From positions 1 through 32,728 of the IMG/VR virus record IMGVR_UViG_2663762948_000007: a stretch of 32,728 nucleotides of DNA. One strand, 5' to 3'. Origin of the DNA: a virus (lineage: Duplodnaviria; Heunggongvirae; Uroviricota; Caudoviricetes). Numbering within the stretch: position 1 is the first letter of the stretch; each line of letters begins with the position of its first letter. A model generated the notes under the pieces. The model did no database searches and was not told where the DNA came from. It saw only the letters and a list, made by a program, of their open reading frames with translations. Below, in pieces: positions 21,734-27,053 of this stretch. Position numbers and translations under genes: made by a program.

Positions 21734-22024
21734 TCATCTTTTAACTCCATATACCGCCAATACCCGTTTCATCGCGGCACTCTGGCGACACTCCTTAAAA
21801 ACCAGGTTCGTGCTCATCTTTCCTTCCCGTTCTTCCCTGGTAGCAAACCGGTAATACACCGTTCGCCAGACCTTACCTTCGATAACCAGAAGACCTGCCC
21901 GTGCCATTTTAGCCGCGGCCTGATTTATGCTGGTTACTGTTGCGCCTGTTAGCGCGGCAACGTCCGGCGCACAGAAGCTATTATGCGTCCCCAGGTAATG
22001 AATAATTGCCTCTTTGCCCGTCAT
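21734..22024 (-). CDS. ren: Ren
   Basis: 96 aa, matches lambda Ren from memory. Confidence 0.9.
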   Translation of the reverse strand: MTGKEAIIHYLGTHNSFCAPDVAALTGATVTSINQAAAKMARAGLLVIEGKVWRTVYYRFATREEREGKMSTNLVFKECRQSAAMKRVLAVYGVKR

Positions 22025-22722
22025 ACACTTGCTCCTTTCAGTCCGAACTTAGCTTTGATTTCTGCGATCTTCGCCAGAGCCTGTGCACGATTTAGAGGTC
22101 TACCGCCCATGACAGGAAGTTGTTTTACTGGTTCAGGGATCGCCTCACCACGGTTAATTCTCGCAGTCATATGGACAAGCTCATCTGCGGCCTTACGGCG
22201 TAATTCCGCATCAGTAAGCGCATTGGCCCGCATGTTCTGATACAGGTTGGTAACCAGCCAGTAGTGCGCGTTTGATTTCCACGGATAAGACTCCGCATCC
22301 GGATACAGGCCTCGCTTCCGGCAATACTCGTAAACCATATCAACCAGCTCGCTGACGTTTGGCAGTCCGGCGATAACGGATGCTTCTTCCCGGCACCATG
22401 CAACAAACTGCCCGGGTGATGGCAGAAATGGTCGATTCTGCCGACGGGCTACGCGCATTCCTGCGTTAACCTGTTCCATTGTGGTGATCCCGTTTTCCCG
22501 GAAAGCCAGAACCCACTGGCGGCGGATTTCGTTCAGTTCGTTCTGGTCACGGTTAGCCAGACTCGCCGGGAAAGTTGCCAGTAACTGGCTGAACACACCG
22601 TTGATGATCTGCGCTACCTGCTGTACCTGTGGCTTTTCGTCGTACTGTTCCGGCATGTTGTTGGCGATCCGACGCATCTGCTCACGGTCAAAGTTAACCA
22701 TCTGTGCGGCGATGTTTTTCAT
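22021..22722 (-). CDS. P: Replication protein P (DnaB helicase loader)
   Basis: 233 aa, matches lambda P. Confidence 0.95.
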   Translation of the reverse strand: MKNIAAQMVNFDREQMRRIANNMPEQYDEKPQVQQVAQIINGVFSQLLATFPASLANRDQNELNEIRRQWVLAFRENGITTMEQVNAGMRVARRQNRPFLPSPGQFVAWCREEASVIAGLPNVSELVDMVYEYCRKRGLYPDAESYPWKSNAHYWLVTNLYQNMRANALTDAELRRKAADELVHMTARINRGEAIPEPVKQLPVMGGRPLNRAQALAKIAEIKAKFGLKGASV

Positions 22723-23618
22723 AGATCCACCCCGTAAATCCAGTCTGTGTTTGTCAGGTCGAGTTTTGATTTGCTGGCTGTCACGACTGCCTGTTGCTTG
22801 TTACGGTTGATTTCGAGCTGGGTCCACTTGTCGCGGAGTTTGGCCGGGCTAAGCACGTTACCGGACCAGAAGTTGTCCTGGCATGCCCAGCGGAACAGTA
22901 CACACATGTCGCGATGGTTACGTCCGTCACGTTCACGCATCAGGCGGATATCGTTAGCCCACCCAGCAAAATTCGGTTTTCTGGCTGATGGTGCGATAGT
23001 CTTCACCATGTCAAACATCCACTCTGCGGCGGTCAGGTCTTCTGCTGTCCCCCACTTGCTGCCGCTCTGAATTGCAGCATCCGGTTTAACCACAGAAAGA
23101 TCGTTTTCTGGCTGGTCAGAGGATTCGCCAGAATTCTCGGACGAATAATCTTTTCTTTTTTCTTTTGTAATAGTGTCTTTTGTGTCCCCCTGTTTTGAGG
23201 GATAGCAATCCCCCAATTTGAGGGATGTTTTATCCCTCGTTTTAGGGGATTTTCCCTCGTTTTGAGGGATGCACCATTCTGAGATGTTTTTATTTGGTCC
23301 AAACATGCCGCCTTGCTGCTTGATAATATTCATTCTGACGAGTTCTAACTTGGCTTCATTGCACCGTTTGACGGGTAACTTTGTAATCTCGCTAAGTTGA
23401 GAATCGGTGATTCTGTCCATTGGTTTATTCCACCCATAGGTTTTACGCAGAATGGCAAGCAGCACTTTAAACTGTCGCTTGGTCAGATCTGCGCCCGAAT
23501 AAGCCTCAAGCAGCATATTTGATAGTCTGGCGTAACCATCATCGAGATCTGCCACATTACGCTCCTGTCCGGCAAAGTTACCTCTGCCGAAGTTGAGTAT
23601 TTTTGCTGTATTTGTCAT
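22719..23618 (-). CDS. O: Replication initiator O
   Basis: 299 aa, matches lambda O; contains ori iterons. Confidence 0.95.
   Translation of the reverse strand: MTNTAKILNFGRGNFAGQERNVADLDDGYARLSNMLLEAYSGADLTKRQFKVLLAILRKTYGWNKPMDRITDSQLSEITKLPVKRCNEAKLELVRMNIIKQQGGMFGPNKNISEWCIPQNEGKSPKTRDKTSLKLGDCYPSKQGDTKDTITKEKRKDYSSENSGESSDQPENDLSVVKPDAAIQSGSKWGTAEDLTAAEWMFDMVKTIAPSARKPNFAGWANDIRLMRERDGRNHRDMCVLFRWACQDNFWSGNVLSPAKLRDKWTQLEINRNKQQAVVTASKSKLDLTNTDWIYGVDL
23140..23275. repeat. ori-lambda: four approx. 19-bp iterons plus AT-rich tract inside O
   Basis: Iterons at 23185-23203, 23208-23226, 23231-23250, 23252-23270 (TCCCCCTGTTTTGAGGGAT-type); adjacent T/A-rich 23140-23180. Confidence 0.85.
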
Positions 23619-23627
23619 AATGACTCC

Positions 23628-23704
23628 TGTTGATAGATCCAGTAATGACCTCAGAACTCCATCTGGATTTGTTCAGAACGCTCGGTTGCCGCCGGGCGTT
23701 TTTT
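23628..23704 (+). ncRNA. oop: OOP antisense RNA (overlaps cII 3' end)
   Basis: Promoter TTGAGT-17-CATAAT at 23591-23619; terminator CGCTCGG-TTGC-CGCCGGGCG + T6 at 23678-23706; matches lambda OOP. Confidence 0.8.
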
Positions 23705-23944
23705 ATTGGTGAGAATCGCAGCAACTTGTCGCGCCAATCGAGCCATGTCGTCGTCAACGACCCCCCATTCAAGAACAGCAAGCAGCATTGAGAACTTTGG
23801 AATCCAGTCCCTCTTCCACCTGCTGATCTGCGACTTATCAACGCCCACAGCTTCCGCTGTCTTCTCAGTTCCAAGCATTGCGATTTTGTTAAGCAACGCA
23901 CTCTCGATTCGTAGAGCCTCGTTGCGTTTGTTTGCACGAACCAT
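23651..23944 (-). CDS. cII: Transcriptional activator cII
   Basis: 97 aa from MVRANKRNEALRIESALLNK, matches lambda cII. Confidence 0.95.
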   Translation of the reverse strand: MVRANKRNEALRIESALLNKIAMLGTEKTAEAVGVDKSQISRWKRDWIPKFSMLLAVLEWGVVDDDMARLARQVAAILTNKKRPAATERSEQIQMEF

Positions 23945-23960
23945 ATGTAAGTATTTCCTT
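23918..23960 (+). promoter_or_regulatory. cII-dependent promoter PRE
   Basis: TTGCGTTTGTTTGC (TTGC-N6-TTGC) at 23922-23935, opposite strand to cII start. Confidence 0.6.
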
Positions 23961-24022
23961 AGATAACAATTGATTGAATGTATGCAAATAAATGCATACA
24001 CCATAGGTGTGGCTTAATTTGA

Positions 24023-24055
24023 TGCCCTTTTTCAGGGCTGGGATGTGTAAGAGCG
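24023..24055 (-). promoter_or_regulatory. nutR (boxA + boxB)
   Basis: Minus strand CGCTCTTACACAT ... AGCCCTGAAAAAGGGCA between cro and cII. Confidence 0.85.
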
Positions 24056-24063
24056 GGAATGTC

Positions 24064-24279
24064 TTAAGCGGCTTTGTGTTCCGGCGGGAACACGTCATCA
24101 AGACTGACTTTTGCGCCCAACTTGTTTAGGCACTCAACAAGAGCACGGCATGTTTTAAGGTCTGGGAAGCGACGACCAGATTCCCAATGTCCGATAGCTC
24201 CCTGTGTGCATCCAACTGCCTTAGCAAGTGTTGTTTGAGAGATATTCAGTGACTCTCGATATTTTCGTAGGTTGCTCAT
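24064..24279 (-). CDS. cro: Cro-like repressor (HTH XRE type, non-lambda)
   Basis: 71 aa from MSNLRKYRESLNISQTTLAKAVG; SD GGAGGG; divergent from cI. Confidence 0.8.
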   Translation of the reverse strand: MSNLRKYRESLNISQTTLAKAVGCTQGAIGHWESGRRFPDLKTCRALVECLNKLGAKVSLDDVFPPEHKAA

Positions 24280-24390
24280 ATGCCCTCCATAGTAACCATG
24301 AAACAATAATACGATATGTACTTTTAGAATGCAAACAAAAAATACATCTTGTGCATGGATGGTTTTAGTACAGAGCGTAATAATAAGGGT
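24280..24390. promoter_or_regulatory. Right operator region with PR (minus: TTGCAT-17-TATTAT) and cI promoter; two copies of an 11-mer operator-like motif
   Basis: TACGATATGTA at 24310-24320 (overlaps PR spacer/-10) and TACAGAGCGTA at 24369-24379. Confidence 0.55.
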
Positions 24391-25050
24391 ATGAAAATGA
24401 AATGGTATGAACTGGCTAGATCCAGAATGAAAGAGCTCGGCATAACTCAAGAGAAGTTAGCTGAAGAGCTTGGTATGACGCAGGGTGGAATTGGTCACTG
24501 GTTGCGCGGATCTCGTCATCCATCTCTTGACGAGATTGGTGTGGTGTTTAAATACCTTGGTATTGATAACGTCTCATTCAACCACGACGGTACATTTTCA
24601 CCTGTTGGCGAATACTCATCTGCCCCCGTTAAAAAACAATATGAGTACCCTGTTTTTTCTCATGTTCAGGCCGGGATGTTCTCGCCTGAGCTTAGAACCT
24701 TTACCAAAGGTGATGCGGAGAGATGGGTCAGCACAACCAAAAAAGCCAGTGATTGTGCGTTCTGGCTTGAAGTTGAAGGTAATTCCATGACCGCGCCAAC
24801 AGGATCCAAGCCAAGCTTTCCTGACGGGATGTTAATTCTCGTTGACCCTGAGCAGGCTGTTGAGCCAGGTGATTTCTGCATAGCCAGACTTGGTGGTGAC
24901 GAGTTTACCTTCAAGAAACTGATCAGGGATAGCGGTCAGGTGTTCCTACAGCCACTAAACCCGCAATATCCAATGATTCCATGCAATGATAGCTGTTCCG
25001 TAGTAGGGAAAGTTATCGCCAGCCAGTGGCCTGAAGAGACATTTAGTTAA
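24391..25050 (+). CDS. cI: CI repressor: non-lambda HTH N-domain fused to lambda-type S24/LexA-like C-domain
   Basis: C-terminal 135 aa match lambda cI from memory ([22 protein letters not shown]...ASQWPEETF); N-terminal 90 aa differ; start at MKMKWY with SD AAGGG (ORF track gives longer 24349 start). Confidence 0.85.
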
Positions 25051-25081
25051 CAGCCTCACAACTCTAAAACACACAACAATA

Positions 25082-25109
25082 ACCCGACCTTAGCGTCGGG
25101 TTTTCTTTT
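25082..25109 (+). terminator. Intrinsic terminator after cI
   Basis: CCCGAC-CTTAGC-GTCGGG followed by TTTTCTTTTT. Confidence 0.7.
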
Positions 25110-25127
25110 TCCAAAATATAAACCCAT

Positions 25128-25204
25128 TAAATACAAAGCGTTATAAAAAACTAATTATATTTAGAACATTTTGTATTGACTCGATAAAGTACAAATCGTA
25201 CTAT
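25128..25204 (+). promoter_or_regulatory. Left operator region and pL (TTGACT-17-TACTAT) with two operator-like 11-mers
   Basis: -35 at 25176-25181, -10 at 25199-25204; TACAAATCGTA at 25190-25200 and TACAAAGCGTT at 25131-25141. Confidence 0.55.
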
Positions 25205-25243
25205 TTAGCCATCAGCAGGACGCACTGACCACCATGAAGGTGA

Positions 25244-25274
25244 GGCTCTTAAAAATTAAGCCCTGAAGAAGGGC
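25244..25274 (+). promoter_or_regulatory. nutL (boxA GGCTCTTA + boxB GCCCTGAAGAAGGGC)
   Basis: Matches lambda nutL boxB exactly; boxA one mismatch; upstream of N. Confidence 0.85.
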
Positions 25275-25542
25275 AGCATTCAAAGCAGAAGGCTTTGGGG
25301 TGTGGTGAAGCCAGCTAGTCACTGGCAAGTGCTTACCTACTGTTGAGCGGTGAAGCGCTCCCAACGCTAGCAATAGCGTGGACGAGATGGGGAGCCGCGG
25401 GCGATAAGGCCGCCATAACGCGCACGTTGTCGCATGGAAAAATCGCTGGGGTGCCGGTTATACCCCTCCGAATGAGACTCAACAAGCTGGAGCTAGACTA
25501 CCAGCCACCACACCACCAAAGCTAACTGACAGGAGAATCCAG

Positions 25543-25869
25543 ATGGATGCACAAACACGCCGCCGCGAACGTCGCGCAGAGAAACAGGCTCAATGGAAAG
25601 CAGCAAATCCCCTGTTGGTTGGGGTAAGCGCAAAACCAGTTAACCGCCCTATTCTCTCGCTGAATCGCAAACCGAAATCACGAGTAGAAAGCGCACTGAA
25701 TCCGATAGACCTTACGGTACTGGCTGAATACCACGAACAGATTGAAAGCAACCTGCAACGTATTGAGCGCAAGAATCAGCGCACATGGTACAGCAAGCCA
25801 CGCAGTGAAATGGGTGTGACTTGTTCAGGCCGCCAGAAAATGAAATTAGGCAGCAAACCACTTATTTGA
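25543..25869 (+). CDS. N: Antitermination protein N
   Basis: MDAQTRRRERRAEKQAQWKAAN arginine-rich motif; matches lambda N; SD AGGAG. Confidence 0.95.
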   Translation: MDAQTRRRERRAEKQAQWKAANPLLVGVSAKPVNRPILSLNRKPKSRVESALNPIDLTVLAEYHEQIESNLQRIERKNQRTWYSKPRSEMGVTCSGRQKMKLGSKPLI

Positions 25870-25880
25870 GAGGAATTAAT

Positions 25881-26504
25881 ATGTCATCAATCCGCTTAAC
25901 TACGAGAATGAAAGAGGAAATCGCTCGTAACGCTTTAATTAAGTCTGGGGTTTTCACTGAACTTGAAGAAGTAACAAAGTTAAAGAACCAGCTTGCACTT
26001 GACGCCAGAGTTATTGCGTTTGGCGGTAAAAAGAAAACTGAGGAAGTGGATCAGTTATCATCCAAGTTGGTAGCTATAAGTGAAGAACTTGAAAAGATGG
26101 GATGTTCATTTTACTCATGCGATGTTCGTTCTACTTCGATTTATCTGACTGTATCTGGAAGAAGGGTTGGCTGGCATTCATACGGAAAAGACGGCAACGG
26201 TGAAGATATATTGCTCCCCACCCCAGAAAAAGATAAATGCATGTTTGACGCAGAACACGAAATAACAAAAAGGTTTGATGAAATCTGCGCATTGCAACAA
26301 AACCTTGAAGCCTTGAAAAAGGATATCGAATCAAATGTATGGGCTGCTTTGAACTCAGTCACAACAGTTAAGCGACTTATTGAAGTTTGGCCTGAAAGCA
26401 AAGAGTTACTACCAAAAGAAGCAGATAAAGCAAGTACAGCACTTCCTGCTTTACGGGTAGAAGATTTGAATAAGATGATTGGACTTCCTTCCGAGGCCGC
26501 ATAG
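25881..26504 (+). CDS. Hypothetical 207-aa protein (accessory gene downstream of N)
   Basis: ATG with SD GAGGAA 12 nt after N stop; charged, coiled-coil-like N-terminus; no lambda counterpart recognised. Confidence 0.65.
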   Translation: MSSIRLTTRMKEEIARNALIKSGVFTELEEVTKLKNQLALDARVIAFGGKKKTEEVDQLSSKLVAISEELEKMGCSFYSCDVRSTSIYLTVSGRRVGWHSYGKDGNGEDILLPTPEKDKCMFDAEHEITKRFDEICALQQNLEALKKDIESNVWAALNSVTTVKRLIEVWPESKELLPKEADKASTALPALRVEDLNKMIGLPSEAA

Positions 26505-26684: not shown

Positions 26685-27053
26685 ATGTCAAACATCAAAA
26701 AATACATCATTGATTACGACTGGAAAGCGTCAATAGAAATTGAAATCGACCATAACGTAATGACAGAGGAAAAACTTCACCAGATTAATAATTTCTGGTC
26801 AGACTCTGAATACCGACTCAATAAACACGGCTCTGTATTAAATGCTGTATTAATCATGCTGGCGCAACATGCTCTGCTTATAGCAATTTCAAGCGACTTA
26901 AATGCATATGGTGTTGTGTGTGAGTTCGACTGGAATGATGGAAATGGTCAGGAAGGATGGCCTCCAATGGATGGTAGCGAAGGAATAAGAATTACCGATA
27001 TCGATACATCAGGAATATTTGATTCAGATGATATGACTATCAAAGCCGCCTGA
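26685..27053 (+). CDS. Hypothetical acidic 122-aa protein
   Basis: ATG with SD GAGGA; Asp/Glu-rich; no lambda counterpart recognised. Confidence 0.65.
   Translation: MSNIKKYIIDYDWKASIEIEIDHNVMTEEKLHQINNFWSDSEYRLNKHGSVLNAVLIMLAQHALLIAISSDLNAYGVVCEFDWNDGNGQEGWPPMDGSEGIRITDIDTSGIFDSDDMTIKAA

What the first reader, a model, noticed from the sequence alone, without database searches (positions are those of the whole stretch)
24280..25204. Heteroimmune immunity region: chimeric cI and a repeated 11-mer operator motif
cI has a lambda-identical C-terminal dimerisation/cleavage domain but a different N-terminal HTH domain, and Cro is an XRE-type protein unlike lambda Cro. Four copies of TACA-N-A-N-CGT(A/T) occur, two in each operator region with the same 59-bp spacing (24310-24320 and 24369-24379; 25131-25141 and 25190-25200). 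In both PR and pL one copy overlaps the spacer/-10 in the same register. This suggests the operator half-site of this immunity type; the motif is not an obvious dyad, so binding geometry is unclear.
Basis: seen in the sequence. Interest (0 to 1): 0.5.

Follow-up and report, generated by a model that had tools for sequence, protein, structure and literature searches.

The report
Known VT2-Sakai-type phage immunity operators
The repeated 11-mer is the core of four of the six 17-bp repressor-binding sites of a lambdoid prophage carrying the VT2-Sakai (Sp5) type of immunity region; these sites have been annotated in GenBank as putative operators in VT2-Sakai and a related Stx1 phage, so the finding is real but ordinary.

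Summary
The four TACANANCGTW copies are real. They are the only exact matches in 32.7 kb, against 0.30 expected by chance. One coordinate is off by one base, so the two spacings are 59 and 58 bp, not 59 and 59.

The copies are not half-sites, and they are dyads.

All six sites are orthologues of the six "putative operators" annotated in VT2-Sakai (AP000422), three of which are also annotated in the Stx1 phage AP005153. They differ from those by 1-2 bases each. PR, PRM and pL fall where those records place them.

cro, OR and the cI N-domain (24058-24639), plus OL (25109-25209), are the only non-lambda DNA in this part of an otherwise lambda-like early region. The cI C-domain is 133/136 identical to lambda's.

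cI and Cro are both HTH_3 proteins with almost the same recognition helix (TQGGIGHW / TQGAIGHW).

In 90 related loci the 3+3 layout is kept. Operator cores are conserved and spacers are not.

Binding by the cognate repressor is inferred, not shown. Novelty: already known. Interest: low.

The parts
24064..24279 (-). cro: a 71-aa HTH_3 (XRE-type) lytic repressor
   Evidence: ORF. Pfam HTH_3, E 1.4e-12. 98.6% identical to the Cro of Stx1 phage AP005153. Annotated as cro in AP000422, AJ413274 and ON470605.
24306..24334 (-). PR promoter: -35 TTGCAT (24334-24329), 17-bp spacer, -10 TATTAT (24311-24306)
   Evidence: Read from the sequence. The consensus scan found it one base offset, as TTTGCA-18-TATTAT. 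It maps to the 'putative major rightward promoter' of AP000422 and AP005153.
24307..24323 (.). OR1: TAATACGATATGTACTT. Overlaps the PR spacer and -10.
   Evidence: 2 mismatches from VT2-Sa OR1. PWM rank 2 of 32,712. Matches TACRNNNYGT on both strands.
24340..24356 (.). OR2: AAATACATCTTGTGCAT. Lies 5 bp upstream of the PR -35 and abuts the PRM -35.
   Evidence: 2 mismatches from VT2-Sa OR2, both in the central triplet. Leave-one-out PWM rank 10. Passes the scan threshold in all the E. coli-type loci and in L088; in Erwinia L089 it is seen only by eye in the alignment.
24356..24384 (+). PRM, the maintenance promoter for cI: weak -35 TGGATG (24356-24361) and -10 AATAAT (24379-24384). The predicted start is near 24391.
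   Evidence: Maps exactly to the 'putative maintenance promoter for cI' of AP000422. The -10 block is invariant in 34 distinct relatives. The transcription start is inferred.
24366..24382 (.). OR3: TAGTACAGAGCGTAATA. Overlaps the PRM spacer and -10.
   Evidence: 1 mismatch from VT2-Sa OR3. Matches on both strands.
24397..25050 (+). cI repressor, 217 aa (or 219 aa if it starts at ATG 24391). HTH_3 N-domain, Ala-Gly cleavage site, and a Peptidase_S24 C-domain of lambda type.
   Evidence: Pfam HTH_3 plus Peptidase_S24. Residues 82-216 match lambda CI structures at E 1e-89. 133/136 identical to lambda from YEYP onward. 97% identical to the CI of AP005153.
24058..24639 (.). Immunity-specific DNA block 1 (cro, OR, cI N-domain). 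No lambda DNA homology; flanked by lambda-homologous DNA.
   Evidence: blastn against lambda.
25081..25102 (+). Intrinsic terminator after cI
   Evidence: Terminator scan. 25073-25108 resembles lambda 35834-35799. A 'putative rho independent terminator for pRM transcript' is annotated in AP000422 just before OL, downstream of two extra ORFs; its equivalence to this one is by position, not by alignment.
25129..25145 (.). OL3: AAATACAAAGCGTTATA.
   Evidence: 1 mismatch from VT2-Sa OL3. PWM top 6.
25162..25178 (.). OL2: TAGAACATTTTGTATTG. Overlaps the pL -35 by 3 bp.
   Evidence: 2 mismatches from VT2-Sa OL2, both central. It is the one-mismatch hit. PWM rank 3.
25176..25204 (+). pL promoter: TTGACT-17-TACTAT
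   Evidence: Promoter scan. The equivalent 'putative major leftward promoter' is annotated in AP000422. Lambda homology to the pL transcript begins at 25210.
25187..25203 (.). OL1: AAGTACAAATCGTACTA. Overlaps the pL spacer and -10.
   Evidence: 1 mismatch from VT2-Sa OL1. PWM rank 1. Matches on both strands.
25109..25209 (.). Immunity-specific DNA block 2 (OL/pL). It ends where lambda homology (pL transcript and nutL) begins at 25210.
   Evidence: blastn against lambda. The OL block has the same three sites in the 73 of 83 relatives whose fetched DNA reaches it, whatever its distance from cI.

Best explanation
The region is the immunity module of a lambdoid prophage of the VT2-Sakai (Sp5) immunity type, set in an otherwise lambda-like early region.

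Six 17-bp imperfect palindromes (half-site W-A-R-T-A-C-R-W) form two tripartite operators: OR1-3 between cro and cI, and OL3-1 downstream of cI.

Proposed mechanism:
- Dimers of CI bind the sites through the HTH_3 N-domain.
- CI at OR1 and OL1 covers the spacer and -10 of PR and pL and shuts off lytic transcription.
- CI at OR2, centred about -43 from the predicted PRM start, is placed to activate PRM.
- CI at OR3 covers the PRM spacer and -10 and would autorepress.
- Cro carries almost the same recognition helix, binds the same sites, and turns PRM off during lytic growth.
- The lambda-type C-domain supplies dimerisation, probably cooperativity and OL-OR looping, and RecA-stimulated self-cleavage at the conserved Ala-Gly.

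Shown here: the sites, their dyad symmetry, their positions relative to the promoters, their orthology to annotated operators, and their conservation. Inferred: actual binding, the order of occupancy, cooperativity and PRM activation.
For: - Motif statistics: 4 exact hits against 0.30 expected, all in OR or OL.
- Symmetrised PWM: the six sites are the top six of 32,712 positions, with leave-one-out ranks 1, 2, 6, 6, 7 and 10.
- Half-site table: A5 and C6 in 12/12 half-sites, A2 in 11/12.
- OR1, OR3 and OL1 match TACRNNNYGT on both strands. The 8 hits outside OR/OL equal the background.
- Orthology: each site is within 1-2 mismatches of the VT2-Sa operators listed in PMC10742460 Table S1.
- The coordinates coincide with the 'putative operator', PR, PRM and pL features of AP000422 and AP005153.
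- The region is 93% identical to the Stx1 phage, Stx2 II, Nil2, 2851 and PA phages, and at least 99% identical to 720R6, 683R2, Louie and Dewey.
- Comparative data from 90 loci: 73 of the 83 close relatives show the full 3+3 layout, and the rest are cut short before OL. The OR-OL distance varies from about 760 to 2,260 bp.
- Operator core columns are variable in 7/36 cases, against 26/35 for spacers (Fisher p = 4e-6) and 8/9 for the central triplets.
- An Erwinia homologue has a CI only 45% identical, with a non-lambda C-domain. It still keeps the helix TQGAIGHW and TAC(A/G)-N3-(C/T)GTA sites.
- Proteins: cI is HTH_3 plus Peptidase_S24, and Cro is HTH_3. The cI N-domain and Cro are 35% identical, with near-identical recognition helices. 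The C-domain is 133/136 identical to lambda's, with the Ala-Gly site, Ser (EGNSM) and Lys (FKKLI) conserved.
Against: - I found no held paper reporting a footprint or EMSA with the cognate CI or Cro. The GenBank features are labelled 'putative'. The only EMSAs found used lambda CI on VT2-Sa sites, with micromolar apparent Kd.
- OR2 is the weakest match (leave-one-out rank 10) and does not overlap the PR -35.
- The O1-O2 spacing at OR (33 bp) differs from that at OL (25 bp) and from lambda (24 bp). Lambda-style OR1-OR2 cooperativity is therefore not assured.
Confidence: 0.9

Rival explanations
1. One reading: the 11-mer is an asymmetric operator half-site, present twice per operator region, with an unusual non-dyad binding geometry.
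For: Four exact copies. Three read in the same orientation on the + strand, and all four share C at position 8, which breaks perfect symmetry.
Against: - Each 11-mer is itself a dyad, TAC(A/G)-N3-(C/T)GTA. Three of the four match on both strands.
- The flanks extend the symmetry to 17 bp.
- In VT2-Sa, OR1 has T at that position, giving the perfect palindrome TACATATTGTA.
- A third site exists in each array.
- An 11-bp element is too short to be half of a helix-turn-helix dimer site that would then be 22 bp or longer, and no partner copy lies at such a distance.
Confidence: 0.03
2. The sites are CI/Cro operators, but the switch logic differs from lambda. The strictly spaced pairs (OR2-OR3 at 26 bp, OL1-OL2 at 25 bp) are the cooperative pairs. 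OR1 then acts alone or through OL-OR looping.
For: - On the + strand both arrays read 33 bp and then 25/26 bp. The pattern is translational, not mirrored as in lambda.
- Among 90 relatives OR2-OR3 is always 26 bp and OL2-OL1 is 25 bp (26 in one). OR1-OR2 ranges over 32-35 bp through a T-run polymorphism, and OL3-OL2 is 33-34 bp.
- OR2 does not overlap the PR -35.
Against: - The fixed OR2-OR3 distance is equally explained by PRM geometry: OR2 at about -43 for activation and OR3 over the -10.
- 33 bp is close to three helical turns, so same-face cooperativity between OR1 and OR2 is possible.
- The C-domain is 98% lambda, whose flexible linker tolerates spacing changes (own knowledge).
- There are no binding data either way.
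Confidence: 0.15
3. The repeats are a by-product of two similar AT-rich sigma-70 promoters, or of a recent duplication of OR to make OL, and are not protein-binding sites.
For: The OR1 and OL1 copies sit in the same register in promoters of similar sequence. The region is about 70% A+T.
Against: - Outside the 17-mers, the OR and OL arrays are only 13/55 identical at the matching offset, which is chance level. There is therefore no duplication-level homology.
- OR3 and OL3 are not in PR or pL.
- Cores are conserved while spacers diverge, out to Erwinia.
- Shuffles preserve dinucleotide content and still give 0.30 expected.
Confidence: 0.02

Closest known systems
Immunity region of Stx2 phage VT2-Sakai (Sp5; AP000422, AP000363, NC_000902) and its close relatives: the Stx1 converting phage and Stx2 II (AP005153/4), Nil2, 2851 and the PA (PST1) phages
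   Same: cro, OR, cI and OL are homologous. Identity is 93% at the nucleotide level over cro-cI, 98.6% for Cro and 97% for CI, and the recognition helices are identical. All six 17-bp operators are orthologous within 1-2 mismatches. PR, PRM and pL sit in the same places.
   Different: - In the window OL lies directly after cI and its terminator. In the Stx phages 1-1.5 kb of extra ORFs separate them.
- The flanking genes here are lambda's (N, nutL, cII, O, P) rather than 933W/HK022-like.
- Small differences in the operator centres and edges. OR1 has C where VT2-Sa has T, and the window's OR1 is closer to VT2-Sa OL1.
- No stx genes were looked for in the window.
Phages with a 99-100% identical immunity region: vB_EcoP-720R6, vB_EcoP-683R2, Louie, Dewey and phi458. 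Prophages with this region occur in 205 of 5,426 complete E. coli genomes.
   Same: The same cro-OR-cI-OL block with adjacent OL and a lambda-type pL leader.
   Different: The backbones differ. For example, 720R6 is filed under Lederbergvirus, while the head genes of the window resemble mEp235. Those records carry no operator annotation.
Bacteriophage lambda OR/OL-CI-Cro switch
   Same: - Tripartite OR and OL made of 17-bp dyads.
- O1 lies over the lytic promoter.
- OR2 lies next to a weak PRM -35, and OR3 lies over PRM.
- The CI C-domain is 133/136 identical, including the cleavage site and the Ser/Lys dyad.
- The half-sites share A2, A5 and C6 with the lambda consensus TATCACCG.
   Different: - The operator sequence, the CI N-domain (about 20 residues shorter at the N-terminus) and the Cro fold (HTH_3 rather than lambda Cro) all differ.
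- Centre-to-centre spacings are 33/26 (OR) and 25/33 (OL), against 24/23 and 24/20 in lambda.
- The spacing pattern is translational, not mirrored.
- OR2 does not overlap the PR -35.
- There is no rexAB.
434 and P22 immunity systems, in which the repressor N-domain and Cro are both HTH_3 paralogues
   Same: CI N-domain and Cro are homologous (35% identity) and share a recognition helix, so both read the same operators. Cro has weak sequence matches to the P22 C2 and 434 repressor N-domains.
   Different: The operator sequence and length differ (14 bp ACAA-N6-TTGT in 434 and 18 bp in P22; own knowledge). The C-domain here is lambda-type.

Membership tests
VT2-Sakai (Sp5)-type lambdoid immunity region | cro, OR and cI homologous to VT2-Sakai and its relatives, with the same recognition helices | tested here: met
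   93% nucleotide identity over 24064-25050. Cro 98.6% and CI 97% identical to AP005153, with helix-3 sequences identical.
VT2-Sakai (Sp5)-type lambdoid immunity region | Six operators orthologous to VT2-Sa OR1-3 and OL1-3 | tested here: met
   Each is within 1-2 mismatches of the published or annotated 17-mers, in the same order and with the same relation to the promoters.
VT2-Sakai (Sp5)-type lambdoid immunity region | Homoimmunity: a VT2-Sakai lysogen is immune to this phage and vice versa | not testable with these tools
   This needs plating tests. It is predicted from the identical recognition helices and the conserved operator cores.
Lambda-like tripartite operator switch | Three dyad sites at each of OR and OL, overlapping divergent PR/PRM and pL | tested here: met
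Lambda-like tripartite operator switch | Repressor and Cro bind these sites, and adjacent dimers bind cooperatively | not testable with these tools
   No cognate binding data were found in the held literature. The spacings differ from lambda's.
LexA/S24 self-cleaving phage repressors | Peptidase_S24 domain with the Ala-Gly cleavage site and the Ser/Lys catalytic dyad | tested here: met
   Pfam PF00717, E 8.7e-29. The alignment to lambda CI shows VQAGMF, EGNSM and FKKLI all conserved.
Lambda immunity (imm-lambda) | Operators of consensus TATCACCGC with the lambda CI N-domain and lambda Cro | tested here: not met
   There is no lambda DNA homology in 24058-24639 or in 25109-25209. Cro is HTH_3, not the lambda Cro family.
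HTH_3 (XRE / Cro-C1) DNA-binding domain | A Pfam HTH_3 match above the gathering score in both CI and Cro | tested here: met
   CI scores 42.2 bits and Cro 47.8 bits, against a cut-off of 23.

The most novel reading that the evidence does not exclude
The operator arrays share a translational spacing pattern (33 bp, then 25/26 bp, read on the same strand) rather than lambda's mirror pattern. Among 90 relatives only the 25/26-bp pairs (OR2-OR3 and OL1-OL2) are fixed, while OR1-OR2 drifts over 32-35 bp. With a 98% lambda C-domain, the cooperative pair at OR could then be OR2-OR3, or OR1 could rely on OL-OR looping. That would give a lambda-CTD repressor a switch logic different from lambda's.
Probability: 0.12. 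Interest if true: 0.4.

Novelty: already known. Interest (0 to 1): 0.1.

Why it matters
It matters little as a discovery. This immunity type, its chimeric CI and its six operators are already annotated as putative features in the VT2-Sakai and Stx1-phage GenBank records (AP000422, AP005153). Citing papers attribute the description of VT2-Sa CI (lambda-like C-domain, different N-domain) to Fattah et al. 2000, which I could not read. The module is common: 205 of 5,426 complete E. coli genomes hold at least 80% of the region.

It is useful for annotation. The close relatives that carry this module (720R6, Louie, Dewey, phi458 and many prophages) have no operator or promoter features, and the coordinates given here can be transferred to them.

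It has modest biological relevance. The same repressor and operators control induction of the Sakai-type Stx2a phage, yet I found no cognate CI/Cro binding study. The spacing observations therefore define simple experiments on how a lambda-type C-domain works on differently spaced sites.

Tried and rejected
- Duplication origin of OL from OR. The identity outside the 17-mers at the matching offset is 13/55, which is chance level. Rejected.
- A fourth or alternative site, such as an OR2 closer to OR1 or extra sites elsewhere. The PWM scan finds nothing above the six. The next best hit (26836-26852, score 12.1) lacks the invariant C in one half and lies inside an ORF.
- Structured RNA in 23900-25900. 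There were no Rfam hits at E up to 1.
- mEp235, the best whole-window relative, as a source of the immunity type. It has a different cro/cI.
- Operator table of PMC4587872 (Additional file 6). It is not present in the supplement text held.
- Fattah et al. 2000 (PMID 11245215) and Serra-Moreno et al. 2008 (PMC2446792). Neither is held, so their content is known only through citing papers.
- Searches for cognate CI footprints or EMSAs of the Sakai type. Nothing was found.
- The large protein-database searches and structure prediction were not run. The answer was settled by DNA-level orthology, and they would not have changed it.

Full report
**Anatomy**

The window reads opposite to the conventional lambda map. 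The features in order are:
- O and P on the minus strand (22021-23618)
- cII (23651-23944, minus; Pfam Phage_CII)
- a 71-aa cro (24064-24279, minus)
- a 117-bp intergenic OR region
- cI (24397-25050, plus)
- an intrinsic terminator (25081-25102)
- an AT-rich OL/pL region (25128-25204)
- a lambda-type N (25543-25869)

**Check of the observation**

TACANANCGTW occurs exactly four times in 32,728 bp, all in OR or OL. The expected number is 0.30, and no shuffle out of 100 reached four. The spacings are therefore 59 bp and 58 bp. The first copy matches on the minus strand.

PR is TTGCAT-17-TATTAT (24334 to 24306, minus strand). pL is TTGACT-17-TACTAT (25176-25204). Each carries a copy in the same register, with the site centre 4 bp upstream of the -10.

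**What the motif is**

Each 11-mer is the middle of a 17-bp imperfect palindrome.

| Site | Coordinates |
|---|---|
| OR1 | 24307-24323 |
| OR2 | 24340-24356 |
| OR3 | 24366-24382 |
| OL3 | 25129-25145 |
| OL2 | 25162-25178 |
| OL1 | 25187-25203 |

The twelve half-sites give W-A-R-T-A-C-R-W. A5 and C6 are invariant, and A2 is present in 11/12.

A symmetrised PWM ranks the six sites first to sixth among 32,712 positions. Leave-one-out ranks are 1, 2, 6, 6, 7 and 10.

The relaxed dyad TACRNNNYGT hits all six sites, and hits OR1, OR3 and OL1 on both strands. The eight hits elsewhere equal the background.

The motif is therefore a dyad, and it is a whole-site core rather than a half-site.

**Identity with a known immunity type**

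The cro-cI block is 93% identical to the Stx1 converting phage AP005153, Stx2 II, Nil2, 2851 and the Sakai-type PA phages. It is at least 99% identical to vB_EcoP-720R6, vB_EcoP-683R2, Louie and Dewey.

AP005153 and the VT2-Sakai record AP000422 annotate three 'putative operators' in OR, together with PR and a 'putative maintenance promoter for cI'. AP000422 also annotates three operators at OL with pL. These features map base-for-base onto the sites above, and they put PRM at window 24356-24384.

The VT2-Sa operator sequences in Table S1 of PMC10742460 differ from the window's by one or two bases each, mostly in the central triplet or at the edges.

According to that paper, Fattah et al. 2000 had already noted the lambda-like C-domain and the divergent N-domain of VT2-Sa CI. 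PMC4587872 likewise refers to OR1-3 and OL1-3 in Sakai-type phages.

The module is common. 205 of 5,426 complete E. coli genomes hold at least 80% of the 1.3-kb query.

**Mosaic structure**

Compared with lambda:
- 23400-24057 is lambda at 99.7%. It covers O, cII and nutR and ends a few bases after the lambda cro stop.
- 24058-24639 (cro, OR, cI N-domain) has no lambda homology.
- 24640-25044 is the cI C-domain at 93.8% nucleotide identity.
- 25073-25108 resembles the lambda terminator downstream of rexB. rexAB is absent.
- 25109-25209 (OL/pL) is specific to this immunity type.
- 25210-25304 is the lambda pL transcript start through nutL, at 98.9%.

Specificity therefore resides in two short blocks, as in the classical imm434 and imm21 hybrids.

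**Proteins**

- CI is HTH_3 plus Peptidase_S24, and Cro is HTH_3.
- From YEYP onward CI is 133/136 identical to lambda CI. The Ala-Gly site and the Ser and Lys catalytic residues are conserved.
- The CI N-domain and Cro are 35% identical. Their recognition helices are almost identical, TQGGIGHW and TQGAIGHW. This is the 434/P22 arrangement, in which both proteins read the same operators.

**Comparative evidence**

I fetched ninety loci that encode a Cro relative.

All of them keep the three OR sites. 73 of the 83 close relatives also show the full three-site OL array, and in the rest the fetched DNA ends before OL. The OR-to-OL distance ranges from about 760 to 2,260 bp.

In an alignment of 34 distinct OR sequences:
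- operator core columns vary in 7 of 36 cases
- spacer columns vary in 26 of 35 cases (Fisher p = 4e-6)
- central-triplet columns vary in 8 of 9 cases

An Erwinia prophage is informative. Its CI is only 45% identical and has a non-lambda C-domain. It still retains the helix TQGAIGHW, a 77%-identical Cro, and TAC(A/G)-N3-(C/T)GTA sites.

The N-domain, Cro and the operators are thus one co-inherited specificity module, and the C-domain is exchangeable. This supports the 'chimeric cI' reading.

**Mechanism (inferred from the lambda, 434 and P22 paradigms)**

- CI dimers at OR1 and OL1 occlude PR and pL.
- OR2 is centred about -43 from the predicted PRM start (about 24391) and abuts the weak -35 TGGATG. 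It is placed to activate PRM.
- OR3 overlaps the PRM spacer and -10 and would autorepress.
- Cro uses the same sites.
- RecA-stimulated cleavage at Ala-Gly induces the prophage.

None of the binding steps has been shown for the cognate proteins in the literature I could search. The only EMSAs found used lambda CI on VT2-Sa sites, with micromolar apparent Kd.

**What is unusual**

Centre-to-centre spacings are 33 and 26 bp in OR (OR1-OR2, OR2-OR3), and 33 and 25 bp in OL (OL3-OL2, OL2-OL1). Read on one strand the two arrays have the same pattern. Lambda instead has a mirror pattern of 24/23 and 24/20.

Outside the sites the two arrays are unrelated, with 13/55 identities.

Among relatives the 25/26-bp distances are fixed. 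OR1-OR2 varies from 32 to 35 bp through a T-run polymorphism.

This may only reflect PRM geometry. It does leave open that cooperativity pairs differently from lambda.

**Verdict**

It is wrong in detail: the motif is a dyad core, not a half-site, and there are six sites, not four. The immunity type and its operators are already annotated and published. Interest is low.

Noticed in passing
window 25305-25495: The middle of the N leader is a non-lambda module flanked by lambda sequence. It is 100% identical in HK633, HK544, HK446, mEp213, mEp043, Sf6 and Sf101. It is closed by a long-range pairing GGGGUGUGGUG/CCACCACACC (MFE z-score -2.4) and has no Rfam match.
   Followed up: partly
window 24335-24340 (T-run on the minus strand, between OR2 and the PR -35): The length of this run is polymorphic among related loci, so OR1-OR2 is 32-35 bp. 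OR2-OR3 (26 bp) and OL2-OL1 (25 bp) are fixed.
   Followed up: partly
window 24391-24399: There are two in-frame ATGs for cI. GenBank relatives start at 24397 (MKWYEL). The predicted PRM -10 (AATAAT, 24379-24384) would start transcription at about 24391, giving a lambda-like leaderless mRNA from the first ATG (MKMKWYEL). The Erwinia homologue has only the ATG that aligns with 24391.
   Followed up: partly
window 25051-25128: There is no rexA/rexB between cI and OL. 25073-25108 resembles the lambda terminator downstream of rexB. In Stx-phage relatives 1-1.5 kb of other ORFs occupy this position.
   Followed up: partly
window 26836-26852: An operator-like 17-mer, TATTAAATGCTGTATTA (PWM score 12.1), lies inside the phrog_646 ORF (26685-27053). 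It recurs in L023 and L047 but lacks the invariant C in one half, so it is probably chance.
   Followed up: partly
L085 and L087 (genome contigs): Contigs encoding a Cro 99-100% identical to the window's, with OR sites of the same type, are filed under MAGs named Bacillota bacterium and Segatella copri. Binning contamination by E. coli phage DNA is likely.
   Followed up: no
window 25881-26504 and 26685-27053: Two non-lambda genes of unknown function (phrog_1965 and phrog_646) follow N where lambda has its own early-left genes.
   Followed up: no
PDB entry 28tn (chain A, 82 aa, 'lambda repressor-like protein'): This is a solved structure homologous to the window's Cro over its full length (E 2.4e-16). 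It could serve as a template for modelling the Cro-operator complex.
   Followed up: no
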